Source: Cytophagaceae bacterium
GTDB taxonomy: Bacteria; Bacteroidota; Bacteroidia; Cytophagales; UBA9547
Reading direction: 5' to 3'
Length of the DNA stretch: 64,000 nt
Assembly: GCA_027488865.1 (NCBI GenBank)
Contig: JAIYAU010000058.1
Span: forward strand, 2,724-66,723
In this document: one piece after another, positions 1-53,441 of the stretch
Position numbering within the stretch: the stretch's first letter is position 1
Layout: every line of letters starts with the position of its first letter
The notes under the pieces: generated by a model
The model's database searches: none
Told to the model about the DNA's origin: nothing
Seen by the model: the letters and a program-made list of their open reading frames with translations, nothing else
Position numbers and translations under genes: made by a program

Positions 1-3000
1 CAAAATTAAACTTACCAAATAAAACTGAACGTGTACCTTCTTCTGGTTTAACCCACAGGGCATAGGTGAATGATTGTGTACTAGGCCATGAAATATCCTG
101 TTTAGTATCTATAAACCCATCTGTGCCATTAAATTGATAAGCTCCATTTGGTGTTCCTTTTCTATCAAATGTGGAAGTAACTCCCCCAGTAATTACACCA
201 TCAATATTGGTAATTAGGTCTTTGGAATCGCCATCAAATGGATAATAAGCTACTAGCCCATTATTCAAACTAGAACTTGGCAACACCACAATACTATCAG
301 ATACCGCACCTTTTTGACCAGCATTATCTATTGCGTACACCTTATATACTTGGGTAGTACAAGCTGGAAGAATAGTATAAGCAGAATTAGGTAAAATTGT
401 ACCGACAGAATCGTACGTAGCACCTGATTTTTTCAAAATAGTATAGGAGGCCACATCCGTTGCAATGTTTGGATCCCAAGTAATGGCAGAACCAGTGGTT
501 GCAAGTCCTGTTGGTTTAAATGGATGTAATGCTTTGGAATTAACCGCAACGGCAGAACCTACTATCGATCCATTGTTTCCATTACAAGTGGCATCATAAG
601 CAACGTTGCCAGAAGGCTCATCTAAGTGATAAAGCAAAACTAACCCAGCTTCACTACCAGTTAGTGGTACATCTTTATTTTGGTTTATCTCTACAGGACT
701 CCTCTCTGTGTTCCAGATTCTAACTTCATCTATTTCACCATCAAACAAAAATCCAAATCCGCCGCCCACGTTAAGATAATTGTTGGTTGGATTTATCCTT
801 ACTGGATTATTACCAACAGGAATTGACTTTACTTCTTGGCCATCCAAATAGTGCTTATAAGTTCCACCTGCTTTGTACGTAATTGCTAGGTGATGCCATT
901 GATTCAACTTATAAAACGTTTCTCCAGCAAATTGGTGAGGAGTACCATCACTTTCCCAAATCTCATTGTATATAGAGCCATCTGAATTGGTGCCCAACAC
1001 AAAATAGAAATTAGAGGATGGAATTCGCACATCACTTAAAGAAACTATTTTCTGATTTGCTAACGTCCCTGTTTTAAACCAAGCCTCTACTGTAAGCTCA
1101 TTGGTTATACCATTTTGTGCAAATTTATCATTGTATATATATTGTCCATTCAACCTAACCGCTTTTCCACTCTCAACAACTGGTACTACGGCTACTGCTT
1201 TTGACATTATACCTCCATCTGCAGAAACCCTAAAATAATAAGTGCTGTTGTTAGTTAATCCTGTGATGGTAATGTTTGGTGCTGCAATATCTATTGCTTG
1301 AGGTGTCGTACTGTTACTATCAATATCATAAACCACGGTATACTTTGTTACCCCCGAAATCGCTGGCCAGGTTAAAGTAACCGAACCATTTCCGGCAGTA
1401 GCACAAGGCTTTTGTGGTTGTAAACCAGTAGCTTGTACTGCAAAACGATAAATAGGGTTATTACAGTCATTACTTACAATTGATAGAGTATCCAACTGTA
1501 GCCCAATCGTGTCTCCTTTAAAGGTAACAATGAGATCAATAGAATCATTAGCTGCTACAGGGCCTGGAGGTGCAAAAGAGGCCGTAAAATGTTTGGAATT
1601 TGTTTGAATTATAGTGTTTACAACCAATGGAGCAGCTCCTTTATTGGTTATTTTGAATATTCTTGAAGCAGGACTATAAACGGCTCCAAAATCTGTAGAA
1701 TCATTGCCATTAGCAACCAAATCATTGGCCAATACCACAGTCTGGTTACCTCTTAGTTCTAAACTTGGTAATGGCAATATTGGGCTTAACGAGTCTATTT
1801 TAACCGCCCCAGGGGCAATCCAGTTTGAACTATTGCCATTTAGGCTAAAACCAACCAATGTTCCATCAATTCCATTGACCACGGAATCTACAAGCGTTGT
1901 GATAGTACCATTGGCACCTCCAGCCATACCTTGATTAAATGAATATTGAGCTGTAAGTCCAGTTTTATCCCTCAATCTTTCTGCACCCATGTTATTTTGT
2001 AATTCTGCTTGGCACAGGGCACGGTTCCAGATGCGGAATTCATCAAGTTTACCATTGAATGGACCCCTCTTAAGACCACATCTATCTTCTATACCAATAA
2101 ACCTGTTTGAACTTGCAGGAATAGTCACTCCTATTTTTCTTATTATGGTACTTTGCAATATTCCATTTACGTACATTTTAAAATCTAGTCCGTCATAAGT
2201 TACAGCTACGTGTGTCCAAGTGTTTAAGACTGGCGGCAGGTCTGAAGACAAATTTATTCCTGAACCTTGCACAGCTGAAAAATTGATTCTATCTGCTAAT
2301 CCAATAAAATCTCCCGCACAGGTAAGTTCTGTACCGATATAAGTAGTCCAAGCAGCACACCCTCCATTACAGCCATTGTTATAAGTAAGAATTTGACTTC
2401 CTAAAACCCGGGGGTTAATCCACATCTCCACACTAAAGTTAGCCTCTAAATTCCAAGCTGGTGAACCATTTGGTATAATTATATTATCATCCACCCCATC
2501 AAAATCCAAGGCAGCGCCTTTTTGAACAAACGCTGGCATGAACTCAGCCCTTGCCGTTTGTGATGGTATACCTATGGTATCTGCTATGGTGTTGGCCAAT
2601 GAAGCACCGCTCAAAGAGGTCCAAACTAAGCCTGTATTATCAGGTCTGGTACCCATAGAAGCCGAGGATTCATAAGGTCTGCCATTAATCTTAGTGTTAG
2701 TTGCATACTCGTAGGTGGCATTATAATTGGCAACATTTACAGGGAAAACACCAAAGTATTCTTTAGTTTGAAGGCTGTCAATACCTAAACCTTTTGCCAA
2801 AACATTTGGTGCTTCGTTTACTTTGTAGACTTGAACACCATTTTGTGCAGAAGATAGGTTAAAGCCTTTTACCGTAAATTTACTACCATCTGTAAGCGTA
2901 ACAGAACTACCTGCATTGTAGATGGATGTAGAAACATCTCCTAGAGCCGCGCCAGAAGTAACCCATGTTGGAGAATTGATTAAATAAGCATTATTGATAT

Positions 3001-6000
3001 TAATGGCTGAGTTTTCAGTTCCATAACCAATACCTTCATCAAATCTAAAGTTTAGCAACAAATTTGGCTCATTTCCTTTAAGCTTTTGACACATGTACTG
3101 TTGTATCTCAGCAGTGGTAAGTGCTTTGCTCCATATGGTCGGCTCATCCATTAATCCTTTATAAGGTACATTGCCCACAGAACTACTTCTACCGATTCTA
3201 TTGGAGGTTCTTTTTACATTGGCTAAAGCACCAGTAAGTTCCGCAGATTCTACGCGAACCCCATTAACATAGATAGAAAACGCTGAATTAGCAGGATCAT
3301 ATACGGCAGCGTAATGATTCCAAGAACCATTCTTAATAGAAACAGGTGCTACTAATGTGGCATATCCATTAATATCATTTCCAAGTTGAAAAATAAGGTC
3401 ATCGCTTAAACCATTTCTACCAAAAAAAACCAAATCACTTGATGGAAGATTACCCATATCGAAAAATCTAGCATAATCGCTCATAGTAGGATTTGCCCAA
3501 AGGCTCAATGTAAAGCCATTTGGAAAATTACCATCAAAAGCATCAAATTTAACATAGTCATCTACACCATCAAATTGTAAAGCTGTACCAGAACCAGGCT
3601 TTTTGAAAGTTGATACAATCAATTTTGAATATTCTCCAGAAGAGCCATATTGTGTTTGACCTTTAACACGGTAGAAATAAGTTCTATTCGGTGTAAGGTT
3701 ATTATCTACAAACGTACTTGATAGTTGGCTTGTCACTACAGAATAATTAGTAGTATCACCTACCGAACGTTCTAAAATGTAGTTTGTTATAGACTCCGTA
3801 CCACAATAGTTCCACTCTAAAGAAGCTTGGGTAATGGTGTGAGGAGCAGCAAGTTTTAGGTTATAAGATGCCTGTGCTGGAATTATGGTAGGAGCACCAG
3901 AATTAGGATTGTAATAGGCTTTATTGTCGGTTGTGGCACATAAACCGTTTAAAGCAATGTTTCCATTGAACGTGTTGGTACCCGTTGTAACTAAAGTAGC
4001 ACCCGCGTGTACAAAAACCGCAGAACCTTTGCCTTCCCCATTATTGGCGTTGTTGCCCCCGACTCCCCCCGCTGCATAGTTATCTACAAAATTAACACCA
4101 TCAATAGTTACATTTCCTTCATAAACAAACAAGGCACCACCTAAACCTGCTCCACCGCCTCCACCGTTAGAATTACTACCACCACAACTATTGCCGCCAT
4201 TTCCACCAAACTGGCCACTTAGCCCAGGAACTGATGGGCAATTCGCATTACCATCTGTTCTAATACCATAACCGCCTCCACCAGCAAAAAGGCCACCATC
4301 ACCTCCCTTTGTGTTACCACTCGAAATAGGATTACCTGCGCCTCCACCTCCAGAAAACAATCCTCCATTTTCACCCGGATTCCCAGGATCCACTGAGTTG
4401 CTACCGTTACCAGGTGTACCTGCAATAATTGAAAGACTACCTAATCCTCCATTACCGCCAGCCCCTCCGACCGTCCAAATGCTTGTGTTGCCTCCATTAC
4501 CACCAATGGCTTTGTTCTTATTGAAATTGACATTTTTTAAATTTACGATACTAGATGTACCTATCACTGATAAACCACCACCTAAACCAGCTCCACCACC
4601 ACCACCTGCTCCAGTTTGAATAGAATTTCCACCATCCCCACCTTTTGCCAAACCATCTGCTATGGTTAAATTACTGATATTCACTTTTGCATTATTTACT
4701 ACCAATACTGAATATAAATTATTTCCACTTACAATGGCTCCGTTGCCTACAATAGCCATTGATTTGGTAATAGCTGGCAGTGAACTGGCCAAAGTAATTG
4801 TACCAGCCGTTGTAATGTTGATTACAGAAGAATCACAAGCCAAATTGGCATTAATGATGGCTTGACGAAGTGACCCTGCTCCCGCATCCGCTAAGGTGGT
4901 AACATTAATCGTATTAATACCTGCAACCAATGGTGCACATTTACTGCCAGAAACAATTGGACTACCAGCTACAAAATTGGAGGTAGCACTTAACAAATCA
5001 AATCCGTTGAGTGTGCCATCATTGGTCCCTACAGAATCTTTTAATACAGATAGACCAACGTTATTTGCCCCTGCTATCCCTTGATTAAAATCATATCGTG
5101 CTAATAAACCAGTTTGATTGCCTGGCTTCTCACAGTTTCTGTTGTTATCGATTTCTGACGCACAAAGTGCACGATTCCAAAAGCGGAATTCATCCATTTG
5201 GCCTTTAAATCTAGATAATGGATTAACTCCTACACAAACGCTGGTACCTATTTCAAAATTATAATTATTGTTTATATTGGCAATAGCTAAATCCGAGGTT
5301 TGAAAAATCCCATCTACATACATAGACACTATTCCACCACTTCTCGTAACAGCCAAATGATGCCAAACATTATTATTAATCGTTGCAGTAGTAGATATTT
5401 CTTTGGTATTATTACCTAAACCATCTTCAATCACTGCAAACCTTGCTGTCCCTCCTTCAATGGTCATTTGGATTAAGTTATCATTATTACATATACTTCT
5501 TTTAGATAACAGGTACATATCATTACTATTCGTTTTTATCTTCATTTCAATAGTAAAATCGCCGGTGCCGACGTTTCCTAATGTTTTGTTGATAATAACT
5601 ACATCATCTACCCCATCAAAATCCAGAGCTGCACCCAAAGCATTTCCCTTAATTAAGAATTTAAACACTGGAATAGCACAATCATTAGAAGCAATTTTTA
5701 AAGTATCGGAAGCACTTCCAGTGGCAGGATTGAACCTTACCACCACTTTGGCTGAATCGTTTACAGCGATGCTGGTAGGGCTACTTAATAAACTAAATGA
5801 AGTGCCTAGGCTAAAACTGGTGTTTGTAATATTTAGTACAGAATTGCCTTTATTATAAATTTTAAATGAGGCATTTAATAAATTGCCAGATACTCCTATA
5901 TCGGTAGAATCACTAAGTGCCGGTGAAAAGTCTGCATTGGCAATCACACTTCTATTGCCTCTTAACTGAATGACAGGTTGGGTAAATATTGGTGCCAATG

Positions 6001-9000
6001 AATCAGATTTTACGGCACCTGGGTATACCCAATTTGAAGTAGCTCCATTTAAGTTAAATCCAAATAAAGTTGCATCATTGGTACTAACAGAATCTTTCAA
6101 CAAAACAGATCCTGAATTATCTACTCCGGCTACTCCTTGGTTAAAGCTGTAATGTGACAATAAGCCTGTGGCACTAGCAGGCAGTTTGGTGGCTCCAATA
6201 TACCTTTGTATTTCAGCTTGGCATAAGGCTCTATTCCATACACGAACCTCATCCATTTGGCCTTTGAAAAATCCAACTTCTACACCGTTTGCATATCTGA
6301 AGCCTATTAATAAACCAAAATTTCTGGTAACATTGGCAACAGTTGTATTTATTACACTTTTCACCAAGTTGCCATCAATAATCAAATCTGTCTTTAAACC
6401 ATCTCGGGAAATGGCGACATGATGCCAATTACCATCATTATAAGTAGTTGAAGTAATACCATTTTTATAACTTCCTCCATCAATTTCCAAAACAATAGTA
6501 CCACTGTTTATTTGAACATTGAAAAAATTGCCATTACTAGCATCATACCTATTAGAAAAAATTACTTGATCTTTTGTATCAGAAGTTTTAAACCAAGCTT
6601 CTACCGTGAATGGATTTGTTCCAAAATCGACCAGATTTAAATTATTACTAATAATTTTATCGTTAACCCCATCAAAATCCAGAGCAGCACCCAAAGCACT
6701 ACCTTTCACTAAAAACTTAAACACTGGAATAGCACAATCGTTGGAAGCAATTTTTAAGGTATCGGAAGCACTTCCTGTGGCAGGATTAAACCTTACTACC
6801 ACTTTGGCTGAATCATTTGCAGCAATGTTGGCAGGGCTACTTAAGACCGCAAATGAAGTTCCGAGACTAAAGCTGGTGTTTGTAATATTTAGTACAGAAT
6901 TGCCTTTATTATAAATAGTAAAGCTTCGTTTTATCAACCCGCCACTTAAACCAAAATCGGTAGAATCTAATATTGAAGGTGTAAAATCTCTATGAGAAAT
7001 TATTGTTTTGTTTCCTCTTACTTGAATTAGTGGTTTTAAAATTACAGGAGCCAAAGAATCGGACTTTACAGCACCCGGAGCAATAAAGTTAGACGTGGTT
7101 CCTGACAAAGCAAGCCCGGAAATGGTACCATCATTAGTTCCTAAAGAGTCCTTTACTGCGGTAATTGTGGTATTGATACCATTGGCAATGCCTTGATTAA
7201 AACTGTACTGAGCCAAAAGGCCTACCTTACTAGAAGCAGGTAATTTAGTTGCACCTATATTATTCAATATTTCTGTTTGACATAATGCTCGATTCCAAAT
7301 GCGAACTTCGTCCATACTTCCTTTAAAAATATTGGAAGCAGAGGTACAGTAGGTTTGAACATCGTTCGGGTAATTACCCAAAGAGACATCTTTAGTAGAA
7401 GTAGTGGGAGAAGGCGAACCTGTCCATGCCTGACTTATTTTTAAGACTCCATCAATATATAATCTACCTCCAGAATTATCAACTACCAAGGCAGCATGAT
7501 GCCAAGCGCCATCGTTTGTAGTGCCGCCTGTAGTTTTAAAAGATAAGTAGTTGTTTACATCTGCATAATAAAAGCCTGCTATATCTCCGTTGACTCTAAA
7601 TAAACTCCAGCCGTTGTTGTCATTAGAACCATATTTATTCACCAAACCATAGTAGCAGCCACCATTGTCATTCGGGGCTTTGAACCAAGTTTCTACTGTA
7701 AGCGGGAAAGCGTTTAATTCTGTTTTGTGAGGTATACTCACAACATCATTCACCCCATCAAAATCCAGAGCAGCTCCCAAAGCATTACCCTTAACTAAGA
7801 ATTTAAACACTGGAATAGCACAATCGTTTGAAGCTATTTTTAAAGTATCAGTAGCACTACCTGTGGCAGGATTAAACCTTACCACCACTTTGGCAGAATC
7901 ATTTGCAGCAATGCTAGCAGGGCTACTTAAGACCGCAAATGAAGTACCAAGGCTAAAGCTGGTGTTTGTAATATTTAGTATAGAATTGCCTTTATTATAA
8001 ATAGTAAAGCTTCGTTTTATCAACCCACCACTTAAACCAAAATCGGTAGAATCTATAATAGTAGGTGTAAAATCCTTGTTAGCGATAAGTATTTTATTAC
8101 CTCTTACCTGAATTATTGGTTGGCTTAAAATAGGAGCTAAAGAATCAGATTTAACTGCACCTGGAGCAATCCAGTTTGAAGTATTGCCAAACAAATTAAA
8201 GCCTGATACATTGCCATCATTTGTACCTACAGAATCCTTCAAGACAGTAAGACCAGCATTAATACTGCCAGCTATTCCTTGATTGAAGCTATAATGAGTT
8301 ACCAACCCATTTTTATTTCTCAATCTAGTAGCGCCAATATTATTTTGTATTTCTACTTGGCAAATTGCACGATTCCAAATGCGTACCTCGTCTAATGAAG
8401 TCGGAACATTTTCTACGCCCAATCCTCCATAGATTTGGTGTACCTTTCCTAACACCCAAATATTACCTAAACCTGACCAAATTGTTGACCTTGGTCCATT
8501 GGTAGTTACCGCTTGTTCAACACCATTAACATAAATCGATATTGACCCATCGTTTCTATATAAATATGCCAAATGTGTCCATACATTAGGACTTACCGTT
8601 TGTAGAGTGGTATTAACTGTGTAAATATCGGCACAGGTAGCATCTACATACATAAGTGGCCTACCCGCAACGACACTAAAGCCTGTTTGATTTCCACCGC
8701 AACCATTTGTTCGAAAACTAGCAATTGAGGCATTGCCCGCCAAATCTGTTTTCACCCAAGCTTCAAAAGTGAAATTGTCCGTGCCACTAAAATTTAAGCC
8801 ACTGCTTGGAGGTAAATTAACAACATCATTCACCCCATCAAAATCCAAGGCTGCGCCTGGCTGTACAAAAGCTGCCAAAAACTCTGCTCGTGCTGTTTGG
8901 CTTGGTATGCCCATGGTGTCAGCAAGAGGTTTGGCTAGTGTTGCACCACCTAGACTATTCCATATAGTAGCTGCATTATCTACCCTACTGGCCATGGAGG

Positions 9001-12000
9001 CACTACCTTCATAAGACCTTCCGTTAATTTTTGTATTGACATTATAATCATAAGTAGCTTTGTAGTTGGTAATATTCACTGGAAATACACCAAAATAACG
9101 ACTGGTTTGAAGACTATCCATGCCAGCACCTCTTAATATAGAATTTGGAGCTTCATTTACTTTATAGACTTGAATACCTTGTTCAGCAGCTAAACTAAAT
9201 CCTTTGGCTGTAAAGTTATCCCCATCTAAAAGAGTTACCGAAGATCCAGTATTATATAAGCTGGTAGAAACATCCCCAAGTGGTGCACCAGAGATTGCCC
9301 AAGTAGGCGAACCAACCAAAACTCCATCGGTTGTACTTCTTTTGGCTTTGTTTTCTGTGATAGCACCAGTGTTTTCGTCAAAACGATCATAATAAACTAG
9401 CCCAAGTTCATCACCTTTAAGTTTTTTACACATAATCGCCTGAATTTCAGCTTCTGTTAGTGCCCTATTCCAGATGGTGGCCTCATCAATGCCAGCTTGT
9501 AAGTAAGGATCTGGACCACTGCTTTTACCTATGTAACAATTATTTCTTAGCACATTAATCGGCATGGCAGAAATAACTGTAGAATTACGTAATATCCCGT
9601 TTCTATAAATTTTTACTGTCCTTGAAGGGTCTATAGTAAGGACAATTTGTTGCCACTCATTAAGCACCAAGGAATTAGCACCTGCTGGCATTTGACCACT
9701 TAACACTCCACCATTGTACATATAAAAGCCAACCGTCGGCGCACCTGCATTTCTAAACAGCATTATATTATCTTGTGATGCCCCATTTCCTAAGTCAAAT
9801 AAACGAGCAAAAGTGGCATTATTAGTCGGTTTAATCCAAATCGACATAGTTAATCCATTTGTAAAATCAGCATAACCAGGTCCTAAGTCTACGTAATCAT
9901 TTACCCCATCAAGTGTAATAGAATTCCCACTACCCGGAGGCAAAATGGTGGAAGTCATTTTTGTATTAGAAACAGGCGAATAACTAGTTCCGTCAAATGC
10001 ACGAACACGGTAGTAGTAAATTGTATTAGCAGTTAAACCTGTGACCACGTCAAAAGTATCGGTAATTCCAGTTTTAGGATAACCAGTAGGTTGGGTTAAG
10101 AAGGTAGGGCTTGTGGAAACAGATAATTCGTAGGAGGTTGCACCTGGGTACTTTTTCCACATTCCTAGAAAACTTGATTTGGTAACATTTGTAGCGGCAG
10201 TTGCTACTGGTGGTAGTGCCGCAAAGAGCATTACGCTTAGCTTGGAATTTCCAGTAATAAAATCTGTTTTGCCATCCCCATTAAAATCACCTATGGCCAT
10301 ACTACTTGGGGCATTTACAACCCCAAAATTTAATGGCTTGGCGAAGTTACCGGGACCGTCACCCAACATAATGCCAGCTACATTTCCAGTGTAATTACCA
10401 AATCCAAGATCAAGCTTACCGTCTCCATTAAAGTCGCCATATTTGAGTGCATTTGGATAAATTTGACCTCCTACATACATACTATCAGCAGAAATAGGAT
10501 TTGGGAAATTACCAGTTCCATCTCCTTTTAATTTTACAATGTTATTGGTATTGACGGCAGCGGTAATAATATCTTGGTCACCATCAGCATCAATATCAGC
10601 AGCAATGGTGGAAAATGGATCGCTTCCAAAAGGGAGAAGACTCTTAATGATAAGATTTGTAAATATAGACGTTCCATTTCCACTAAATAGCCTCACGGTA
10701 CTAGTAACATTATTGGAGGAAGCCACATCTGGATAACCATCCCCATTAAAATCACCTACAGCCAAATTGATTGGGCTGGAAATAAGCGCATTGGTGCTAG
10801 CTGTACCTAAAGCTCCTGTACCATCTCCAAATAAAATACTAATATTATTACTACCCATTCCTTGGTTGGCAGTAACCACATCCCACAAACCATCTTTATT
10901 TATATCAGCAACCTTAACATCACGTGGCAAAATTGCCCCAACAGAATAGTTCCCTTTTAACGTAAAATTATTGGTACCATTCCAAAGCCAAATATCTATG
11001 CCATTATTTGTGGCTTCTCTTGCAATGGCCAAATCTTGAAAGCCATCTCCGTTAAAATCTGCTATCGCCAAAGATCTTGTTGTGTTACCAACGGTCACAT
11101 AAGTTGGACCAACAAATGTACCATCTCCATTCCCTATATAAAATCCTACCCTGTTATTGGCCCCATCGGCATAAGCAAAATCAGTTTTACCATCATTGTT
11201 AAAATCGGCAGTTTCTATTTGGTATGCCTGTAAACCAGTCCCAATATCCGTTCTGTTATAATTTGGGGTCAATGTTGGCGTATTTGTCACCGTAAAAACC
11301 CTTGTTCCTGTACCTAAAATGCTTTCATTTGAGCTTACTTGTAAGCCATTGGCATTGTTTCGTACTATAATTGGTGCTAGGGAAGAAGCGCCTTGAGGTA
11401 CATTTACAGTAATACTAGTGCCTGCTGGATTCGCAGTGCCTACTACTTTTACGGCACCAAAATAAACATCATTAGGGCCAGAAGGGTTAAAGTTTAATCC
11501 ATTTATGGTAATTGGAGTTCCTACAATACCACTAGTTGGAGTAAATGAGGTAATGATGGGAGGCACTTGAACTACTTTCGCTGCTGAAAGCTCCGAAGAA
11601 TTTCCTAATGCATCAGTAACCGCTGCAACGATGGTATTGCCAGCAACAATTTTGCTCAAAGGAGTTAAATTAAAATCAATATAACTAAGTGCTGACGTAC
11701 CGATATAGTTAACCGTACCCAGATAGTTTTTAGAATTACCAGTTGCATCAGATTGGTATAAATCAATAGTAAGTGGATAAGCCGCATTTGATGTTCTCGT
11801 CCTCACTCTTACTTTACCACTTAGGTCACCATTAGGCATTCCTAATATGGTTGTAAACTCAGGACTATTTTGCAAATTATTAGGTCCTGCATCATTGTCC
11901 TCTGACCCTGCGATAACGTCATTTGCCGTTGTGGCATTGGGATTAAGATCAATGGTCATTACTGCATGTCCATAACTTCTATTGCCTCTAAAACTATTGT

Positions 12001-15000
12001 TTATAGCTCCTGGATAAACGTATAAGGCCCTTACGCCAGCTGTTGTGATATTTGCTTCGCGAGTAGAAATGCCGCCAAATAGAGTATTGTTACCACCAAT
12101 AAGTGCGGAAGAAAAGGTATTGCCCAAAACTGTAGCACTATCTTTTTGAGTACCAAAATAATTATTATAAACTCTGGTACCATTCCCATTGATGAACATT
12201 CCTTCTTCATTACCGGAAATGAGATTTCTGCTAGACAATGAAGTATCTCCAATCTGGTTATTATTAGATCCTGCATCAATGGTTATTCCTCTTACGTTAG
12301 AATTAATACCAGGCACTGTTGTGGCAAGCGTGTTAGTACCTACAAAACAACCAAGGACCTTATGCTGTCCTGTTCCACCAAGTTTTATATTAGAAATAGA
12401 ACCCGCAGATGTATAAAACGCCAATCCTTTAATAATAGACCCCGCTGATGCGATGGTAATCACATCCCCTCCTGATCTTGTAAGATTTACCCGAAGCTCT
12501 GCATTTGTACCCTTTGAGATGGTATTAGTACTACTACCATATGCCGAATAGCCATCAATTATAACTGGGTTGATTGCTGTAATGGTTGGATTTGCGCCTC
12601 CATTAATTGTAGAAACTGCAGTAAGATTAGCCTGTTGAATACTAAAATCTATATAATCAGTATCAGCATCGGTGTTGGCATCATTAACAGCTTGGCGAAG
12701 GGAACCTAAGCCAGCAGTTCCTACGTCTGTATTGTCGGTTACTCGTAGTGCTCTTAAAGGGGTATGAACAAAAGTAGCGGAATTGCCATTTCCCGAAATA
12801 TCAGTGGCTACATTTCCGTTAAGTTCTTCAAAATTCCAATACCCAACTGCTCCGTTGGGCAGAGTAGAACCCATATCTAACTGTATCTGAGCTGATGTCC
12901 GAGCAGTATTAAAAATTCTCACTTCATCTAGCTGCCCCGGAAAACCATTGGTTTCTCCAAATCCATTGCCAATTACTAAGCTACCTGTTGGAGGAACTGG
13001 ACTTGAATTTTGAGGCCAACTTGGCACATAAGGGGTTATTACACCATTTATGTATAAATCCCAATTGCCATTTTTAACAATGGCTATATGTGTCCATTTA
13101 TTTAATTCAATCGGTGCTGTAAAATTTACACCCCCAAGACCTGCAATAAAAATCGAAGCATTCCCTGTAGGGTCAATGTAAATACCATAACCATTTGCCG
13201 AACTATTTCCATTGTAAGCTACAAATGCTAATCCCGTTGGTAATTTGGCCAATTTAACCCAAGCTTCAAGGGTAACATTATCTATAGCGTTAGAAACTGC
13301 TGTTGCAGTTACTAAATTACTTCCAGCAGTAGGATTTCCTTCTAAATAAATACCGCGGTTGCCTAATGGTTGGGTAGGTAAAACTAAAGGAATAATAGCC
13401 CGCGCTGCACTAAACTCAGAAGTATTCTTTGAAGCATCCATAGCAATGGCGGTAATACTATCGCCTAAGTTAAACGTGCCTGGCAAAGACCAAGTAGTAC
13501 CTGTTGAAAATACCCTTCCTAGAAATGTTTTTCCTTGTGCTTTTGTATTGGCAGGATAAGGGATAGTATTGGCGAATACCTCCAAGGAGTCACCTGCTGT
13601 GCAAGTACCCGATACTAAGGAAGGTGTAGCAGAGGTGACAATTGGCTTACTTTTGTTAGCATTAGCGCCAGAGGTGAGTGAAATTCCTCCGTTGTTGTCA
13701 TAAATTGAATTTCGTACAATACGATTTCCATTGGTACTGGATCCATCCAATAAAATAGCTAGTGTGGTACTATTTGCAAATATATTTGCATCAGATGCAT
13801 TAATCCCTCCAAAAGTATTATTTGATGAGCCACTAAGCACTTGCACTTCGCGCAGATTGCCCAATGCTGTAACACCATCTGGTTGTAAGCCAATCAAATT
13901 TCCAATTATCTTATTGTTGTTACTATTGGTAGTAAATCTGATAGGAATAATCCCTCCCGAGATTACATTTCCTTGAATTAAACCATTAGAGGCAGTCTCA
14001 AACCAAATTCCTCTTCCGCCATTTGGTCCATTAGCAGCTATACCATTTAATAAAGCAGAAGTACCATTTGGATTGGTGCCTATATAGTTATTAACCACTG
14101 AATTGTTGGTGCCACTTACTACTACCCCATTAAATTGCGCATTGGATATCACATTACGAGAAGCAGGTGTACTTCCTCCAACCAAAATTTGACTCGAATT
14201 TATATTGATATTGTTATAATTGGATGCAGGTGTGCCTGAAGCAGCTATTCCAAACCAACATCCTTGAACTGTAATATTTGATGAAGCAGTATTAATACCT
14301 AACGCATGCTCCCCAGCAACTCCAGACTTATTTATTAGAGATAGCCCTTGTACGATTGAGTTACTTATACCCTTAAGTTCGAGACCGGTGTTCAATCCTA
14401 AACCTGCGAAATCAAGTTGAATGCGAAGGTTAGCATTATTTCCAACGTTCAGTGTGTTACTTGATGATCCAAAGGCAGAATATCCATCGATGAATACAGG
14501 GTTGATGACGGAAAGAATGGCACTATTAATGTTGATATTTTGCACACCACCAATACCTGCTACTGTTTGCTGAATACTAAAATCAATATAATCTTGATCC
14601 GCATCAGTATTGGCATCATTGATAGCTTGTCGGAGTGAACCAAGACCAGCAGTACCCAAATCCGTATTATCGGTGACGCGCAGTGCTCTAAGTATCCCAT
14701 TGGATAAGGTGGCATCAAAGCCTATAGGTTGGCTTGTTGTAGTTAAACCATTACTTTCTTCAAAGTTCCAATACGCCACTGCCCCATTTGGCAGAGTAGA
14801 ACCCATATCTAACTGTATTTGGGCTGAGTTTCTGGCAGCACTAAAAATTCGTATTTCATCTAGTTGCCCTGAGAAATGCCCTCCGCCCCAGCCTCCAGCT
14901 GCTGTACCGAAAGTCCAAGGAGATGAAGAGACTGTAGCGGATAATTGTGAATTAATGACTCCCGTAAGAGTCACAGTTTGTTCGACACCATTCACAAAGA

Positions 15001-18000
15001 TTTGTTTTACTCCTCCGTTGCTTACAAAAGCTAAATGAGTCCATTTGTTTGGTTCGATTAACGAGGGTGGTGTTTGGCCATATTCCCAGCCTAATGAGGC
15101 AGCATTATCTGTGGCAAAATTTATGGACCCATCATTTATAATGGTAAACACAAACTTAACTTGTCCAAATCCACCAGCCTGTTTGGTTGCAATATTATAA
15201 TAACCATTCAGATCCTTAACTTTAACCCACGTTTCTACTGTGAAATTGCTATTTCCTGCAAAATCCAAAGCAGCTGAGGTTGGCATATTTAAGACATCAT
15301 CCACCCCATCAAAATAAATACCCCTATTGCCTACTGGTTGTGTAGGTAAAACTAAAGGAATAATTGGTTGAGCTGCGCTAAACTCAGAAGTGTTTCTGGC
15401 GGCATCTACCGCTGTAGCTGTAACACTATCGCCTAAGGTGAATGTTCCACTTAATGACCAAGTAGTGCCTGAAGCAAAAACCTTACCCAAAAATGTTTTT
15501 CCTTGAGCCTTGGTATTGGTAGCATAAGGTGCGGCATTAGAATATATGACAATAGAATCTCCCGCCGTACAAGTACCAGAGATGGTAGAAATACTGGCAC
15601 TGGTAATAACCGGTTTGGCTTTGTTGTTATTGGCGCTGGTGAGTAATGAAATCCCTTTAATTGCATTATCAAAAATACTATTTCTATAAATGAAATTACT
15701 TAGTGAGGAAGCATCTTTGATAACAATACCTCCTGCTTGGTTTGATCGGATGGTATTTCCAAAGATGCGACTATTTACCGCAGGACCATCTATTTGTATA
15801 CCTGCACCTACGTTATTAGCGATGATATTTGGAAATGTTCCGTTTTTATTGCCTATTTGGTTAGCATCTACTGAGCCACCATTTGGCGTTAGCCAAATGC
15901 CTTGATCGCCATTGGGAACTGATAATAGGCCGTTGCTGCTTGTACCAATATAGTTATTAACGACAGTATTGTTGTCACCGTCCATCAAGTGAAGTCCATA
16001 ACCTAAATTACCTGAAATTACGTTTCTAAAACCAGCCATTCCAAACCCAATGTTGTTAAAATCAGAGGATTTTACAGTAACCCCAACTCCGTTTGGCATG
16101 GCAGCAGCTCCAGTCCTGTCTACCCCTACAAAATTTCTGATAAGTGCTGTTCTTGTTGCATTTGATAAAAGAATACCATCTTGAACATTACCCGATATTA
16201 TATTAATGTCTTTGGCACTACCACCACCTATGTATATTCCATTAGAAAGAAGCGATGAAACTACCACACCAACGGTGTTTCCTTGAGCCAAACCGCCATC
16301 AGCAGTTCCAATAAAACAACCTTCAACTGTAACTGTATCTATGGTATTGGTTATATTTATACCCTTATCAAAATTGATAAAAGAGATTGCATTAATGGTT
16401 ACTTTTCCCCTTGTACCACTTGGATGGGTAACAGTTAAGCCATCAAAAGATTTATTTATACCATTTAAAATGATCTGTGGTATGGTGGCAACAGAATTAG
16501 AATCGGTATTGTCAATGTAACCCGGTTGTGATCTACCGTCGATAAAAAGGCCCTCTGTTATGGCTGGCAAAGAATAATCGAGGAAAACGATTTTATTACC
16601 AGGAAATTGTAAATCAAACGTGATAGTATCTTTGCCTGGTTTTGTATTGGCATAGTTAATAGCACGGCGTAGGTCTCCACATTGTCCGCCACTAAGAGGG
16701 TAATCATCTGTATCAGTTGTGACTATGAGGGGATTACAAGTCGGGCAGACCACCGCCGAATCAACATGGAACAGCGGCCCTACTTGACCCGAATTATCCA
16801 CTGCTACTACTCCAAACCATAAGGTATCGCAAGTACTGTAGCCTCCTAATCCAAAAGAGGTTGCTAATGGGTTGGTTACCACAGCTACGGGACTAACTGC
16901 GGTATTAATAACGGCAGATTGACTCTGGTAAATACGGAACTCTTTTATATCTGTAGCAATATTGGTAGTCCAGTTCAGGTAAACCGAGTCTCCATCTAAA
17001 GAGCCTCTTGCCATGAGTGTATCGGTATAGGGATACAAGGCTTTGGAAGTTATGCTATTGTGACTTCCTACCCAAGTAAGGTTATTGGCTAATTTTGAAT
17101 TATTAAAAGCCACTGAGCCACTGGGTTCATCCAAGTGGTACAACACTAGCAGACCCGGTTCGTTGCCAACCGCTGGTTTATCTTTGGCCGCATTTATTTG
17201 TGCAGCAGTACGCTCTACGTTCCATATCCGCACCTCATCTAGTTCACCTGAAAATACCCAGCCAAAACCATTGCCTAGTTGTAATACATTTGTAACATTC
17301 AAGACTCCAGTAGGCGCTACCATACTTTCCACCATCTGCCCATCTAAGTAAATCTGAATTAACCCTCCTGACCTAAAGGTTAAGGCAGTATGATGCCACT
17401 CGTTACTTTTAAAGCGAGTGGCATTCCCAAATCCCTTTTGTTCGACGATGCTACCATTATTCACAAAAACCTCATGGTAAAGTGTTGTATTTATAGAACC
17501 TAACACGAAAGAAAAATCGGTTGGAAGGCTTCCTCCTCCTAGTCTTGACAGGGAAACAAATTTTTGGTTATTAATGGAAGAAGTTTTAAACCAAGCTTCT
17601 ACCGTTAACTGGTCTGTGATTGCCGAAAGGTCAGCACCCTGATTTTCTAAGTATGAAGTTGCACTGCCAGTAAATACGCCAGCTCGGCCACTCTCCAAGG
17701 TCGGTACTACCACCATGCTGTCGCTAAATGGAGTATAAGTAGTACCGTCGAAAGCAACTACTTTAAATACATAAGGTTGGTCATTTAACGCCAAGGCTGG
17801 GATCGTATAAGTAGTATCGACAGTAGTTAAGGCGGTAAAAATTCCTGGCCCTAATTGTTTAAAAAATAAATCGTAAGATACAGCTCCTGGCATGGGATTC
17901 CAATGGGTGAGAATGGAGTAATTCTGACCAGAAGGATTTTTTACCGCGTAGGCACGGAAGTTTTGTGGACCTGATGGTGTAACAACCTTGGCTGCTGAAA

Positions 18001-21000
18001 ACTCAGAAGTATTATTCAACACATTTGTAGCGGTAGTTGTAATTCTATCCCCTACTGTAAATGCGCCGGCAAAACTCCAAGAAGAACCTGTGGTAGTAGC
18101 TGTGCCTAAGAATATTCGACCTTGGTTTGTGAGGCCTGATTGTGGAGAATCTTTGTAAACTTCAACAACATCGGCATTACCACATGTACCAGATATTAAC
18201 ACAGAGGATGCGGAAGTAATGTCTGGAGGCGTTATTGCGCTATTACTGCTATTTGAAAGTAAAATACCACTAGAAATATTTCCGAAAATAAAATTATTAG
18301 AAAATCTATTATTTACTGAGCCAGTGCTTGTTACTGCAATCCCATAACCGTTAAATGCTATGATATTTGCCCCGGATGCAAGCCCATTTCCAATGTTATT
18401 GTTTTGACCAGACGAAAAAGGATTGATTAATACACCTTCTCCAAGATTTCCCAAAGGAGAAGTACCATTTGCTTGCACACCAATATAATTGCCTAAAATG
18501 GTATTGTTTGATGAGGTTGAACCGTCTATCCGAATACCCGTCAAAGCTCCGCTGATGATATTGCGCTGGGCTGGGCTTGCTCCCCCAATGATGTTGTTTG
18601 AACTACCCTGTATCACCAAAGCAGTACTACTGGCTGAAGGATAGGAGGCTGTTCCTGCTGCGTTTACTCCTATATAATTACCCTCTATCACATGTCCTGC
18701 TACTCCTGAAAGCCACAATGCTCCTAATCCGCTTGACACACTTTGTGCAATTGACAAGCCTCTAACGGTAGTTGGCAATACACTGTTTAATTGTAAAGTA
18801 TTATTCGCAACTGGTGCATCCAGCTGTATAACAATATTAGCTGGTACGGCGGCAGTGGCTACAGATGCACCAAACGCGCTATACCCGTCTATTACAGCCT
18901 CCTCAGTTACGTTACTGGGAGAACCAATAAATGATTGTATGGTCCATACACCTGCCGAGTAATTTGGATCACTAGTGGGAATACTGAAATCAATATAATT
19001 TTTTCCAGCTAAAGTATTTGCTTGATTTATGACACCTCTAAAACTTTCTAGCCCACTCTCATTGGTATTTGTGACACGAAGGGCATGTAAAGGATCAGAA
19101 GAATTTAATCCAATTGTATTTCCCAAATAACCGTCACCACCAACAATTCCTGAATTTATCAGTGTTTGCCCAACACCTTCATCCATTTCAAAATATGCTT
19201 CTGCACCTATAGGCCCTTGTGTTAGCATATCAGAGGCAATATCAGCATCGCCTCTTGTAAGATAAAATACTCGTAATTGATCTACCAGCATTTTAGCAGG
19301 TACATTTCTACCGAAATCAATATTTCCTAAAATTAAGGGGTTGGGAGAATTGACTGCCCCGGATAAACCTGTCTTTGTAAAAATCAAAGAGCCATCTTTA
19401 AATACTTTTAATATGCCCTGATCGTCATAAGTTAATGCCAAATGCACCCATTTGTTCATTTCAATAACACCAGGTACATCGTCATACAATTGCCTTCCAA
19501 TTTCTGGGCCAAAACTAACTCTTAATGTAGAATAATTGTTAATTTCTAGAGATACTCCATTAGACCCTAAACTAGGTAAGTTACTGATGATATAGGAGTT
19601 ATTATTATTCAACATAGGCTTCAGCCAAAACTCAATGGTGAGATTATCAGTTGAAGGTATTGTTCCAAAAGTGGCTATATCATCTACCCCATCAAAATAT
19701 AAGCCTTGGTTACCTGCTGGTTGGGTAGTAGGTATAACTACTGCATTAACTACTGGTTTGGCAGCTGAAAACGATGAGCTGTTGTTTGATAAGGAAGTCG
19801 CGATGGCAGTTACATTATCTCCTAAGTTAAAAGTACCTGTAAACGTCCAGTTACCAGAACCATCCGTCAGTGTAGTACCTACAAAATTTGTACCTTGCTC
19901 AGGAATGCAACCACTGCCATCTAGATAGATATCCACAACATCCCCTATCGCAGCAGTTCCAGTTATTGATGTGGTGGTTGCTGTAAGTATGATAGGCGGG
20001 GCTTGATTATCGTTAGCCGCTCCAGTAAGTTTGATACCTGCATTAACATTACAATAAATTTTATTACCCCTAATTTGATTCTGTACACCTGTGGGCTCTA
20101 CATAAACCCCATCAAAATAACCATAAGCAATGATATTGGGTTCTCCTGCACCTATACCTCCTACAAGATTCCGATTTGATTCTAACGAAATTCCGTTGTT
20201 ATTAGGTACCGAGATTGTGTTGTCGGTGCCTACTCCAATTCTGTTATTGTAAAACGTGTTATTGTCACTTGATAAACCTTTAACCATTATTGCATAATCT
20301 AACCCAGCGAAATAGTTATTAGAAACTAAGGAATTGGCTGCGTTAATATATATACCTACCGCATCAAAGGTGGTTAAAGAACTAGATAATCCATCATTAT
20401 TGAGACCTATGAAATTATTGACCACCCTATTATTATTGGCAGTCAATAAAATGCCATTGCTAGCGTTCGCATAAATCAGATTTCGATCAGCATTTAAGTT
20501 TGTTCCAATTGAATTGTTTATACCATAAATGGAAATACCATTGCCCAAAGCATTAACAACAGTTCCATCTGCCTTAGCATTAATTTTACATCCTTTTATA
20601 AAATTGCCAGAAGAGGCTATATCAAAACAGGTTGCACTAAACCCATAGATAGCAAGCCCTCTAAAAATAGCTCTCCCATTGATACCTACATCAATGCCAT
20701 TATCCACACCAAGAAGCCCGGATATTTCAATAGTATGTGTACTGTTATCAGTGGTAGTGGCGGTGTTGGGCTTACTACCAAATTGGGAATAGCCATCTAT
20801 AAATAAAGAATCTTCCGTAATAACTACTTTATTTTCTAAAGTAATGGTGGCCACTCCTGAAACATAATTAGGATCCGTGGCTGGAATACTGAAATCAATA
20901 TAGCTTTTGGTAAGATCAGAATTTGATAGTTTGATTGCATTTCTAAAACTACCAGTTGGAGGATTTGCAGCTAATGCGTCTTCAAGCGTATTTGTTACGC

Positions 21001-22189: not shown

Positions 22190-22259
22190 GGATAATGGGA
22201 TAATTGATAATTGATAATTGTCAATTATCAACTTTCAATTATCAATTATCAATTATTCC
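22190..22259. repeat. AT-rich heptamer-based imperfect palindrome directly downstream of the stop of gene 22265..26113; possible terminator hairpin
   Basis: ggataat-gggataat-tgataat-tgataat-tg | tcaatta-tcaactt-tcaatta-tcaatta-tcaatta. The arms are largely complementary. Confidence 0.6.
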
Positions 22260-24290
22260 TTAACTTACTCTACCACTACCTTATGCACTTTGCTGCTGTA
22301 GGGGTTGGATACTTTTACGAAGTATACACCTTTCTCCAAGTTGCTTAGGTCGATGCTGCCGTTGCTGGTGCCTGACTGTTGTAACTGGCCTGTCGCAGTG
22401 TGTATCTCGATGTTTGCTGTGCCTTGCAGGCCTTGGATGTAGATGGTCTTGGTAGCTGGATTGGGATATAGTGATAAGCTTCCTGTCTCTAAATCCTGAA
22501 CTCCTGTTACTGCTTCGCTCTCTTCTACTCTTAAGCTACTTACTTCTCCGTTTACCACAGCTACAAAGCTATTGAAATCGTCTTTGGTGATAGCCGTTCC
22601 GCTGTTCTTGGCCAAGTAGATGTAGGCAATTGGTTCTTTGGTTTCTACAAGGTCCTTTAATACGTACGTAGTGGCCATCAAACGCTGTGCGGATGGCACA
22701 TTGTTGCTCATGCTGGCCATTTTATGACTGATCGGCTGTGCGATATCGTAACCTGTTACGTTGAACTTGCTTCTGTCATAGTCCCAAGCGAAGTCGATAC
22801 CTGCACTTGGTCCGTTGCTCTCGTAAGAAACTGGGATGGCCACGTATTGGTCGTTTGCTGAAATGTCTTTCAAAGACAATACCAACACATTAGAAGGTTT
22901 TTCTGTACGCAAGGTAGTTCCGTTGGTGGCAAGCCATGAGCTGTTTACATCTCCTAGAAGGATGGCATGGTAAGTTTGATCCACTGTAGTAGTTCCACAG
23001 GTGCTCAAGTCTGCTGATACAGGAAGGTAAGCAGGCACTGCTGGAACTTTAAACCTAGTGGCTGTGGTAAATGGTGTGGTAGTCAACAAGGTTGCGTCAA
23101 CAAACAACCAGTCTTTTGACTTGGCATAAGGTACTTTGGCACTTAGGATGCCGTTTGCATCTGCTTCGTAGTTCCAAGACTGTGGGAACTCGCAATTGTA
23201 TTGGTTTAAGCCACGGGAAGAGATAAGTGCAGCATCACCAGAAGTTACTCTGCCATCTAGGTTCACATCTGCTGCCAATAATTGGAAGATGGTTGGGGCT
23301 GTCACGACGCCGTTGGCGATTTGTGCGGCGGTGGTTCTGTCTGCGGCATTGATGACTGTGGTAATGTTGGCACAGCTGGCAAAGGCTACACTGGCATCGC
23401 CCAAGACATCACGGCTGAGAGTGAGGGACTTCAAAGTGGCATCTGGTACGGTAAAAAGGCCATTGGCATCCAGTGAAGGGCTTGCCAATGCTGTTCCTGT
23501 GGCATCGGTCGTGCTATAAGGGGTGATGGTGGTTGGGTTTTGCCCAGTTACACCGCTAATCTTTTTGGTAGCTGTCTCTCTGTATTGTATTTGACCATTA
23601 AAAGCTCTAGTAAAGTTGAAGGCACCTGGCACTACTGGACAAACCACATTGGAAGTAAACAGCTTGCTCTCGATCAGGTCAGAGGTGCTGAAGCTAGAGA
23701 GGGCTTGGTTGGGAGCTACACCTGTGTTGATCCTGAAATTGACATTGATTACCACTCCATCACCACTGAAGAAAGTGTTTGCAGGAGCACCATTAAGGTA
23801 CAAGCCAACGCCTACCTTACCAGGAGTACTGCTGTTGAGGTCGAAAGTAGCAAAGGTGGTAGCTACTGGGCCTACTGTTGCGGTGCCTGTTGGTGTTACC
23901 TTGGTGTCATCGTATAACAGGTCAAAATCAAGAGCGATGAGACCTGAAGCGATATTGCCTACTGTTTTTACTGGAACACTAAATGTGCCAGCTGGGGTAC
24001 AAAGGACGGTTTGTGGATCTATTTTGTATTTAGAGGTCTCTACTGTGCCTGTGCCTGAGGTAGTGCCTGTTACTGTTAAAGTACCACAACGGATGATTTT
24101 TCCGTTGTTTATTAGGTTACCAGAAACTGCTAGTGTAGTGCCTGAGGCAATCGTTAGTGTTTGCCCTGCATTGATGGTGAGGTCTTTGGCAGTTAAGATA
24201 CCGTTGTCTAAGGTGCTGTAGTTGCCGTTGATAATGGCATCGGTGGCAGCGTCTGGGGCTGAAGGTGACCAGGTGGTGCCGTTCCATGTG
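22255..24290 (-). repeat. About 2.0-kb block roughly 95% identical (by eye) to 26442-28477; this is the 3' coding half of paralog A
   Basis: Direct comparison of the two stretches at an offset of 4187 nt. The encoded C-terminal ~675 aa differ at only a handful of positions. Confidence 0.8.
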
Positions 24291-26428: not shown

Positions 26429-26441
26429 TACTTTAAACCTT

Positions 26442-52075: not shown

Positions 52076-52110
52076 AAATAAAAATTGTTGGTTTATAAAT
52101 TTTTGCATCC

Positions 52111-52145
52111 AAAAAAAGCTGGAAGTCATCTTCCAGCTTTTTTTA
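52111..52145 (+). terminator. Rho-independent terminator after the OmpA/TSP3 gene
   Basis: AGCTGGAAG-tcat-CTTCCAGCT flanked by an A-run and a T-run. Confidence 0.8.
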
Positions 52146-52245
52146 TTTGACCGCTCATAATTGTTTATATATCCTAAATAATTATTACTTTAGGCAACAA
52201 ATTCATAATTAAAAAAATTACACTTCTTAAAATCCAATTTATTCG

Positions 52246-53382: not shown

Positions 53383-53397
53383 TTAGAAATAAAAATT

Positions 53398-53432
53398 ACC
53401 CTTCAAAGTATTAGTTATAATATTTGAAGGGT
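53398..53432. terminator. Bidirectional hairpin between convergent GT4 and msrA genes
   Basis: ACCCTTCAAA (53398-53407) and TTTGAAGGGT (53423-53432); perfect 10-bp arms. Confidence 0.6.
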
Positions 53433-53441
53433 TTAAATTCA

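What the first reader, a model, noticed from the sequence alone, without database searches (positions are those of the whole stretch)
5400..8850. About 1.08-kb tandem repeats with patchwork conservation: homogenised Ig scaffold, diverged LamG heads
Repeat anchors at 5611, 6667 and 7753 (periods 1056 and 1086 nt) begin ~300-nt stretches that are ~90% identical at nucleotide level. These stretches encode an ASH/choice-of-anchor-D-like Ig domain (...FTIYNKGNS(I/V)LNITNTSFSLGTSF...LKIASNDCAIPVFKF). The LamG-coding remainder of each unit is far more diverged. This mosaic is what gene conversion or unequal crossing-over of the scaffold would produce alongside diversification of the putative ligand-binding domain. 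The near-identical stretches also make the copy number unstable and easy to mis-assemble.
Basis: seen in the sequence. Interest (0 to 1): 0.6.

Follow-up and report, generated by a model that had tools for sequence, protein, structure and literature searches.

The report
Gene-conversion patch in giant adhesin repeats
Three neighbouring lectin-plus-Ig modules inside a giant secreted surface protein of a Bacteroidota bacterium share a sharply bounded 260-310-base patch that was copied between them by recombination, which is an ordinary way for repeat-rich surface proteins to evolve.

Summary
Window 5603-5902, 6659-6958 and 7745-8044 are 83-92% identical, spaced 1056 and 1086 nt apart. The rest of each ~1.07-kb unit is at near-random nucleotide identity.

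The repeats lie on the minus strand, inside one open frame of more than 8147 codons. It encodes a T9SS-type giant surface protein, and each unit is a LamG domain followed by an Ig-like domain.

Silent sites decide the reading:
- In the patch, dS is 0.36-0.50.
- Elsewhere dS is saturated, even where the protein is 60-70% conserved.
- Codons at conserved residues are identical in 75-81% of cases inside the patch and 43-45% outside (p 1e-4 to 2e-6).

The patch has sharp edges that ignore domain borders. It starts inside the Ig domain and ends 13 codons into the next LamG. This is intragenic gene conversion, in at least two events, and none is very recent.

- Unequal crossing-over: no LamG pair is alike.
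- Measurable LamG "diversification": dS is saturated.
- Assembly hazard: the longest exact match is 45 nt.

Copy-number variation could not be tested.

Ten other LamG-Ig arrays show no such silent-site patch. The scan has noted intragenic conversion in surface proteins on other DNA several times. The finding is ordinary.

The parts
2..21718 (-). Window part of one giant gene: ATG at 21718, signal-peptide-like N-terminus, 7239 codons without a stop. It continues 908 more codons to the end of contig C55, and probably onto contig C64, which ends in a T9SS type A sorting domain.
   Evidence: Pfam domains
7784..8863 (-). Unit A (residues 4286-4645): LamG-A, its ~50-residue C-terminal tail (HYSFNQG...NWI) and Ig-A
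6698..7783 (-). Unit B (residues 4646-5007): LamG-B, tail and Ig-B. Modelled: LamG jelly roll plus a beta-sandwich whose pLDDT is 87-93.
5642..6697 (-). Unit C (residues 5008-5359): LamG-C, tail and Ig-C
4919..5641 (-). Unit D (residues 5360 to about 5600): LamG-D and tail only, with no Ig. A Gly-rich beta-helix-like block follows.
1424..2524 (-). Unit E (residues 6399-6765): a remote fifth LamG-Ig unit of an older Ig subtype (36-39% to Ig-A/B/C). Used as the internal control.
7746..8053 (-). Conversion tract, copy A: the last ~90 residues of Ig-A, the linker and the first 13 codons of LamG-B (GAALDFDGVND)
6660..6967 (-). Conversion tract, copy B: Ig-B core, the linker and the first 13 codons of LamG-C. 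It is 92.5% identical to copy A, and 19 of the 23 differences are at third codon positions.
5604..5866 (-). Conversion tract, copy C (shorter on the N-terminal side): Ig-C core, the linker and the first 13 codons of LamG-D. It is 87.5-88% identical to copies A and B.

Best explanation
The region is part of one giant secreted surface protein of a Bacteroidota bacterium: at least 8147 residues, probably close to 9000, and very probably exported by the type IX secretion system. One stretch of it is an array of modules, each a LamG (concanavalin-like, lectin-type) domain followed by an Ig-like beta-sandwich. The modules are old duplicates whose LamG parts and tails are saturated at silent sites.

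A segment of 260-310 nt was copied non-reciprocally between three neighbouring modules by homologous recombination, that is, intragenic gene conversion. The segment covers the C-terminal three quarters of the Ig domain, the inter-domain linker and the first strand of the following LamG. At least two events are visible. An older one involved all three copies (silent divergence now 0.36-0.50). A younger one between copies A and B covers roughly the first 100 nt of their shared tract (2 differences in 101 nt). Since then the copies have drifted, mainly at third codon positions, under purifying selection.

Shown: the repeat, its sharp edges, the silent-site contrast and the domain identities. Inferred: the recombination mechanism, the direction of copying, T9SS export and surface display, and the role of the LamG heads as distinct binding modules spaced by Ig domains.
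For: Repeat family and spacing. It has three copies only in the genome.

Nei-Gojobori dS in the Ig core is 0.36 (A-B), 0.44 (A-C) and 0.50 (B-C). It is above 1.6 or undefined in the LamG core. It is also saturated in the LamG C-terminal segment and tail, which are 51-73% identical at protein level among units A, B and C.

Codon identity at conserved degenerate residues is 58/72, 54/68 and 51/68 in the tract, against 45/101, 43/99 and 45/100 outside (Fisher p 2e-6 to 1e-4). The control pairs with unit E show no difference (p 0.5-1).

Maximum chi-square on the silent-site series places breakpoints at alignment columns 258 (A-B) and 305 (A-C, B-C), with permutation p 0.0005-0.005. The E controls are not significant.

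In the nucleotide alignment, identity jumps at column 98 (A-B) or 143 (C) and collapses after column 405. Neither edge is at a domain border: with the secondary structure.

19 of 23 A-B differences are at third codon positions. A-B divergence is uneven, with 2 differences in 101 nt and then 21 in 207 nt (p 0.008).

Ig-A/B/C are 75-87% alike, yet only 58-62% identical to the nearest homologue in another genus (G006). That genome also keeps the separate E-type Ig.

In ten other LamG-Ig arrays no Ig or LamG pair has pS below 0.45, so the low silent divergence is not a property of this kind of Ig domain.
Against: No genome of the same genus or species was available. The classic test could therefore not be completed: paralogues alike within a genome while LamG orthologues pair up 1:1 between genomes. 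LamG identities to G006 are flat at 33-41%.

Silent divergence of 0.36-0.50 means the main event is old, so 'homogenised' describes history and not an ongoing process.

Clustering of AB|C, BC|A and AC|B site patterns along the tract is not significant (p 0.44-0.69). Exchange among varying partners is therefore not shown.

Confidence: 0.75

Rival explanations
1. A recent tandem duplication of whole LamG-Ig units was followed by replacement of the LamG parts with diverged cassettes, from other strains or from unassembled paralogues. The conserved Ig-junction stretches served as recombination handles. On this view the Ig tract is the remnant of the duplication and the LamG parts are the imports.
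For: LamG-B and LamG-C are each flanked on both sides by a copy of the tract. Unit number differs widely among relatives: 10-12 units in P0002-P0004, and two adjacent units on the truncated G006 contig. The LamG heads have no clear orthologues in the nearest relative.
Against: No donor exists in the assembled genome. The best non-self match of any LamG is another unit of the same array, at 37-44%. The left edge of the tract differs between pairs (column 98 against 143) and lies inside the Ig fold, which is not where a cassette swap would be expected to end. This reading needs three or four independent replacements, where conversion needs two events.
Confidence: 0.12
2. No recombination took place. 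The Ig core is simply under very strong purifying selection, possibly including selection on codon choice or on an overlapping nucleotide-level element. The LamG heads are free to vary.
For: The Ig core has low dN/dS (0.06-0.17). In Aurantibacillus P0003, units 7 and 8 have Ig domains 85% identical in protein with much weaker silent-site similarity (pS 0.57). So selection alone can keep neighbouring Ig domains alike.
Against: Silent sites are the issue here. Codon identity at conserved residues nearly doubles inside the tract, and the step is abrupt. Unit E's Ig, of the same fold and in the same gene, shows only background codon identity with A, B and C (10/29, 10/29, 10/27). No Rfam family matches. 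The tract RNA folds no better than shuffles (z = +0.96). The antisense ORFs are not shared by all three copies.
Confidence: 0.07
3. Assembly artefact: the repeat structure, copy number or chimeric joins were produced by a short-read assembler.
For: The genome is a 64-contig draft. This same gene is broken at a contig end inside another repeat family.
Against: The copies differ by 8-17% and share at most 30-45 nt of exact match. Each is embedded in a unique LamG sequence. The frame stays open through 8147 codons. Differences between copies fall mainly at third codon positions, as in real diverged DNA.
Confidence: 0.04

Closest known systems
Intragenic concerted evolution (gene conversion) among repeat modules of large microbial surface proteins
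   Same: A sharply bounded stretch is shared by repeat modules of one surface-protein gene. Silent-site similarity is confined to the stretch and purifying selection acts on the protein. It fits homologous recombination between misaligned repeats.
   Different: Only about a quarter of each 1.06-1.09-kb unit is involved. The tract straddles a domain border. The events are old (dS 0.36-0.50), so the array is not being kept identical.
Periscope Proteins (SasG/Aap, Rib, Sgo_0707; Whelan et al. 2021, PMC8201768)
   Same: Both are large bacterial surface proteins with tandem folded domains, in which DNA identity between repeats can promote intragenic recombination. SasG likewise alternates two domain types.
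   Different: Periscope repeats are highly similar over the whole repeat, form a rod under a terminal binding domain, and vary in number between strains. Here the units are mostly dissimilar and each carries its own lectin-like head. Number variation is untested. The organism is Gram-negative and the protein is a T9SS cargo.
LamG-like jellyroll / choice-of-anchor-D giant proteins of Bacteroidota, for example the 4610-residue protein of Aurantibacillus circumpalustris (P0003)
   Same: They share the alternating LamG-Ig module of about 350 residues (10-12 units in P0002-P0004) and a Bacteroidota secretion or gliding C-terminal domain. Identity over the array is 33-35%.
   Different: The window's protein has only 3.5 + 1 such units. 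They are embedded among beta-helix, FG-GAP propeller, Fn3 and other modules. Its tail is a type A T9SS domain, where P0003 has CHU_C. None of the ten other arrays surveyed has a silent-site-similar patch.
Solved LamG/LNS-type domains: PAPP-A LamG-like module (8hgg, 8d8o) and the Bacteroides ovatus putative carbohydrate-binding protein BACOVA_03559 (4dqa)
   Same: These are the best fold matches of the modelled unit B over 216-262 aligned columns (Foldseek E 5e-10 to 4e-9, probability 1.00).
   Different: Sequence identity is only 15-19% and TM-scores normalised to the two-domain query are about 0.42-0.46. No ligand can be inferred.

Membership tests
Laminin_G_3 / concanavalin A-like lectin-glucanase superfamily (PF13385) | Score above Pfam's gathering threshold over the full model | tested here: met
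   Unit B alone scores 82.9 bits against a cut-off of 27.6, model positions 1-150 of 151. There are 14 stretches over the window's protein.
Laminin_G_3 / concanavalin A-like lectin-glucanase superfamily (PF13385) | Jelly-roll beta-sandwich fold like solved LamG/LNS/pentraxin domains | tested here: met
   AlphaFold2 model of unit B: mean pLDDT 75, pTM 0.69. Top PDB fold matches are the PAPP-A LamG module, 4dqa, laminin LG, neurexin LNS and pentraxins.
ASH / HYDIN-VesB-like / DUF1573 Ig-like domains (PF22544, PF07610, PF15780) | Score above the gathering threshold | tested here: met
   For unit B alone, PF22544 scores 27.0 against 25.5, which is marginal, and DUF1573 scores 22.6, below 26.1. On the C-terminal half of the window's protein: DUF1573 77.3 bits, PF22544 76.0 bits, ASH 30.3 against 27.
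Choice-of-anchor D domain (NCBIfam NF012200) | Score above NCBI's curated cut-off | tested here: not met
   40.0 bits against a cut-off of 45, covering model positions 3-105 of 108. It is related, but not callable as a member.
T9SS cargo with a type A C-terminal sorting domain (TIGR04183) | Por_Secre_tail domain at the very C-terminus of the same polypeptide | tested here: inconclusive
   The frame running in from the end of contig C64 ends in a TIGR04183 match of 39.4 bits against a cut-off of 23. Its start is 77-87% identical in protein to the last module on C55. The two contigs are not joined in the assembly.
T9SS cargo with a type A C-terminal sorting domain (TIGR04183) | N-terminal signal peptide | not tested
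   The N-terminus MKKLFTILFFSLVATVVYAQ looks like a signal peptide by eye. No predictor was run.
Periscope Proteins (PMC8201768) | Tandem array of domains highly similar over the whole repeat at DNA level | tested here: not met
   Only 260-310 nt of each 1056-1086-nt unit is 83-92% identical. The LamG core is 38-49% identical.
Periscope Proteins (PMC8201768) | Repeat number varies between strains | not testable with these tools
Gene conversion / concerted evolution of paralogous segments | Silent-site similarity confined to a tract with abrupt edges | tested here: met
Gene conversion / concerted evolution of paralogous segments | Copies within the genome are more alike than orthologues between species, although the duplication predates the split | tested here: inconclusive
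   Ig-A/B/C are 75-87% identical to each other and 58-62% to G006 Ig1. LamG orthology with G006 is unresolved (33-41% to all), and the G006 contig ends before the equivalent array.
Diversity-generating retroelement target (template/variable repeat pair) | Mismatches between the copies fall almost only at adenines of one copy | tested here: not met
   The candidate template has A at 6-19 of 23-51 mismatches in every ordering, and T is about as frequent.

The most novel reading that the evidence does not exclude
The tract copies that flank LamG-B and LamG-C could work as recombination handles. Cells in a population would then delete, duplicate or exchange whole lectin heads. That would be a cassette-type variation of binding specificity in a T9SS giant adhesin, and not only a passive trace of past conversion.
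Probability: 0.08. Interest if true: 0.5.

Novelty: new member of a known kind. Interest (0 to 1): 0.22.

Why it matters
It gives a clean, quantified example of partial gene conversion inside a giant Bacteroidota surface protein, and it shows that such tracts do not follow domain borders. The practical lessons are modest:
- Protein-level "conserved scaffold, variable head" patterns in modular adhesins should be checked at silent sites before being read as adaptive.
- Here the pattern is a historical accident of recombination, not a rule of this protein family.

It does not open a new question.

Tried and rejected
A metagenome scan with the Ig-B peptide found no relative. All 22 genomes of the family were searched, and the nearest copy is 60% identical.

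2. DGR-type mutagenesis. Rejected: the mismatches are not adenine-specific.

3. An RNA element or structure in the tract. There is no Rfam match at E up to 0.1, and the fold is no better than shuffles.

4. An intragenomic LamG donor. None is closer than 44%.

5. Exchange among varying partners, judged from clustered site patterns. Not significant (p 0.44-0.69), so it is not claimed.

6. dN/dS as a test of LamG diversification. It is uninformative because dS is saturated.

7. Generalising the pattern. Ten other LamG-Ig arrays, taken from loci, show no Ig or LamG pair with pS below 0.45. P0007, whose Ig domains are 62-85% alike, could not be examined at DNA level. It exceeds the 5000-residue limit, and its own contig did not come back in the metagenome scan.

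8. A LamG tree against G006 to date the duplications. It was not pursued, because all identities lie flat at 33-46%.
Full report
**What is there**

The finding lies inside one very long open frame on the minus strand. It starts at ATG 21718 and runs off the window's left edge after 7239 codons without a stop. The window is G000:C55:2724-66723. On the contig the frame continues to the contig end, giving 8147 codons.

The last module on C55 is 77-87% identical in protein to the frame running in from the end of contig C64. That frame ends 759 residues later in a T9SS type A sorting domain (TIGR04183, 39.4 bits against a cut-off of 23). So the gene very probably encodes a T9SS cargo of close to 9000 residues, broken in the assembly by a different repeat family.

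Pfam finds many domains: 14 Laminin_G_3 stretches, beta-helix (NosD/Beta_helix), an FG-GAP propeller, Fn3, and Ig-like domains of the DUF1573/HYDIN-VesB/ASH kind. The two genes upstream are also T9SS cargo. The genome is 4.33 Mb in 64 contigs at 34.7% GC.

The repeat finder gives 300-nt copies at 5603-5902, 6659-6958 and 7745-8044, with 83% and 92% identity to the middle copy and spacings of 1056 and 1086 nt. The genome holds only these three copies.

In protein terms the array has these units:

| Unit | Residues | Content |
|---|---|---|
| A | 4286-4645 | LamG + tail + Ig |
| B | 4646-5007 | LamG + tail + Ig |
| C | 5008-5359 | LamG + tail + Ig |
| D | 5360 to about 5600 | LamG + tail, no Ig |
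| E | 6399-6765 | remote LamG + tail + Ig |

Each full unit has three parts:
- a LamG domain (unit B: PF13385, 82.9 bits);
- a ~50-residue tail (HYSFNQG...NWI);
- an Ig-like sandwich (PF22544, 27.0 bits against 25.5; choice-of-anchor D 40 bits, below its cut-off of 45).

An AlphaFold2 model of unit B has mean pLDDT 75, rising to 87-93 in the Ig part. It finds LamG/LNS/pentraxin folds in the PDB, led by the PAPP-A LamG module and Bacteroides ovatus 4dqa.

**Selection or a separate history**

I aligned the units by codon and split them into segments.

| Segment | Protein identity among A, B, C | Silent divergence (dS) |
|---|---|---|
| Ig core | 89-95% | 0.36 (A-B), 0.44 (A-C), 0.50 (B-C) |
| LamG C-terminal segment and tail | 51-73% | saturated (pS 0.71-0.85) |
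| LamG core | 20-29% | saturated |

The LamG core has 38-49% nucleotide identity over all unit pairs.

I then counted only residues conserved between two units and asked whether the codon is the same:
- Inside the tract: 58/72, 54/68 and 51/68.
- Outside the tract: 45/101, 43/99 and 45/100.
- Fisher p is 2e-6, 3e-6 and 1e-4.

The internal control is unit E, which has the same fold and sits in the same gene. It shows no contrast (10/29 against 39/91 and similar; p 0.5-1).

A maximum chi-square scan of the silent-site series puts the change point at alignment column 258 (A-B) or 305 (A-C, B-C). Permutation p is 0.0005-0.005, and the E controls are not significant.

Purifying selection on the protein therefore cannot explain the pattern. 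The tract has a younger common ancestor than its surroundings.

**Anatomy of the tract**

In the nucleotide alignment, identity steps up at column 98 for A-B and at column 143 for C. For all three it collapses after column 405. In window coordinates the copies are 7746-8053, 6660-6967 and 5604-5866.

Against the model's strands, the tract starts after the first two Ig strands (A-B) or inside the third (C). It runs through the linker and ends 13 codons into the next LamG (GAALDFDGVND). It does not follow domain borders. That suits a recombination tract better than domain shuffling.

This also explains why the first codons of LamG-B, LamG-C and LamG-D resemble each other, while LamG-A's start resembles LamG-E's (80% nt).

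Differences inside the tract are mostly at third codon positions (19 of 23 for A-B). A-B divergence is uneven, with 2 differences in the first 101 nt and 21 in the next 207 (p 0.008). So at least two events of different age are visible. Clustering of the three site patterns is not significant (p 0.44-0.69), and I make no claim about changing partners.

**Which mechanism**

Unequal crossing-over would duplicate a LamG along with the Ig, but no LamG pair exceeds 46% identity. Non-reciprocal copying, that is gene conversion, leaves the LamG parts untouched and fits.

The mirror reading is a recent duplication whose LamG parts were later replaced. It cannot be excluded for donors outside this genome. 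No donor exists inside it (best 37-44%, all within the array), and this reading needs more events.

Several other readings were tested and rejected:
- Assembly error is unlikely. The longest exact matches between copies are 30-45 nt, the flanks are unique and the frame is intact.
- DGR mutagenesis is rejected by the mismatch spectrum.
- An RNA element is rejected: there is no Rfam match and no excess structure.

**Relatives**

No same-genus genome exists in the collections, and a metagenome scan found nothing close.

The nearest homologue is in another genus of the family (G006). Its contig aligns at 47% identity with residues 5547-6762 of this protein. It carries two adjacent LamG-Ig units:
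- The first unit's Ig is 58-62% identical to Ig-A/B/C and 34% to Ig-E.
- The second unit's Ig is 45% identical to Ig-E and about 35% to Ig-A/B/C.

So the two Ig subtypes predate the genus split, while A, B and C coalesce after it. LamG identities to G006 are flat (33-41%), so orthology of the heads, and therefore the full concerted-evolution test, stays open.

More distant giant proteins have 10-12 such units (P0002, P0003 of Aurantibacillus circumpalustris, P0004). In several, blocks of neighbouring Ig domains are 65-85% alike while their LamG parts are 35-49% alike.

At DNA level the picture differs. In ten other arrays, no Ig or LamG pair has pS below 0.45. The lowest are 0.48 for an Ig pair only 41% identical in protein (L033), and 0.57 for Ig 7-8 of P0003. 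Median Ig-Ig identity (0.39-0.55) is close to median LamG-LamG identity (0.36-0.44). The window's patch is thus a particular event, not a family rule of conserved scaffold and variable head.

**Function**

This part is inferred. The protein is probably a surface-displayed, multi-headed binding protein in which distinct LamG heads are spaced by Ig domains. Nothing here identifies ligands. Whether the heads were diversified by selection cannot be judged, because silent sites are saturated.

**Comparison and novelty**

The closest concept is intragenic concerted evolution in repeat-bearing surface proteins. Periscope Proteins (PMC8201768) share the idea that DNA identity between repeats drives recombination. 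They are defined by whole-repeat similarity and strain-to-strain number variation. The first is not met here and the second is untestable.

Earlier notes of this scan describe similar conversion patches in surface proteins of other genomes. One is a LamG-Ig array with the opposite pattern, LamG alike and Ig diverged. I did not test those notes, but they fit the view that such patches fall anywhere.

This is a new member of a known kind and of low interest.

**Limits**

Noticed in passing
G000:C55:1-2723 (left of the window) and the end of G000:C64 (about 51300-53582): The giant gene runs off contig C55 inside a different repeat family: ~180-residue modules containing SICQGDTVTFSL...YQW. The frame entering from the end of C64 is 77-87% identical in protein to that module and ends in a T9SS type A sorting domain. 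The true assembly gap of this gene is here, not in the LamG-Ig array.
   Followed up: partly
window 22253-22552 and 26440-26739 (and onward): The two neighbouring T9SS cargo paralogues (BNR propeller + cohesin-like + Por_Secre_tail) share a 3' stretch that is 95% identical at an offset of 4187 nt. Their propeller parts consist of 123-nt periodic repeats at only 60-75% identity. This looks like a second, more recent conversion tract in the same locus.
   Followed up: partly
window residues 3837-4645 and about 5960-6765 of the giant protein (window about 7784-10210 and 1424-3840): There is a higher-order duplication: Fn3, LamG, an unassigned ~190-residue domain, then LamG-Ig, occurring twice. 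The first codons of LamG-A match those of LamG-E (80% nt) and not those of B, C or D. This marks the older super-repeat on which the conversion tract was later laid.
   Followed up: partly
L031 (G006:C246:1-11698): In the nearest relative, the ABC-type Ig (58-62% identity) and the E-type Ig (45%) sit in adjacent units of one array. That contig also starts inside a LamG, so the equivalent of the window's first array is unassembled there.
   Followed up: partly
L051, L066, L061 (metagenome contigs): Some metagenomic relatives carry 12-15 tandem copies of the same Ig type with no LamG between them. So the Ig module also forms pure stalk-like arrays.
   Followed up: no
window 5403-5858 and 6606-6914, + strand: Antisense ORFs of 151 and 102 codons overlap two of the three tract copies. 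The third copy has none of 80 codons or more, so they are probably chance frames in AT-rich antisense sequence.
   Followed up: partly
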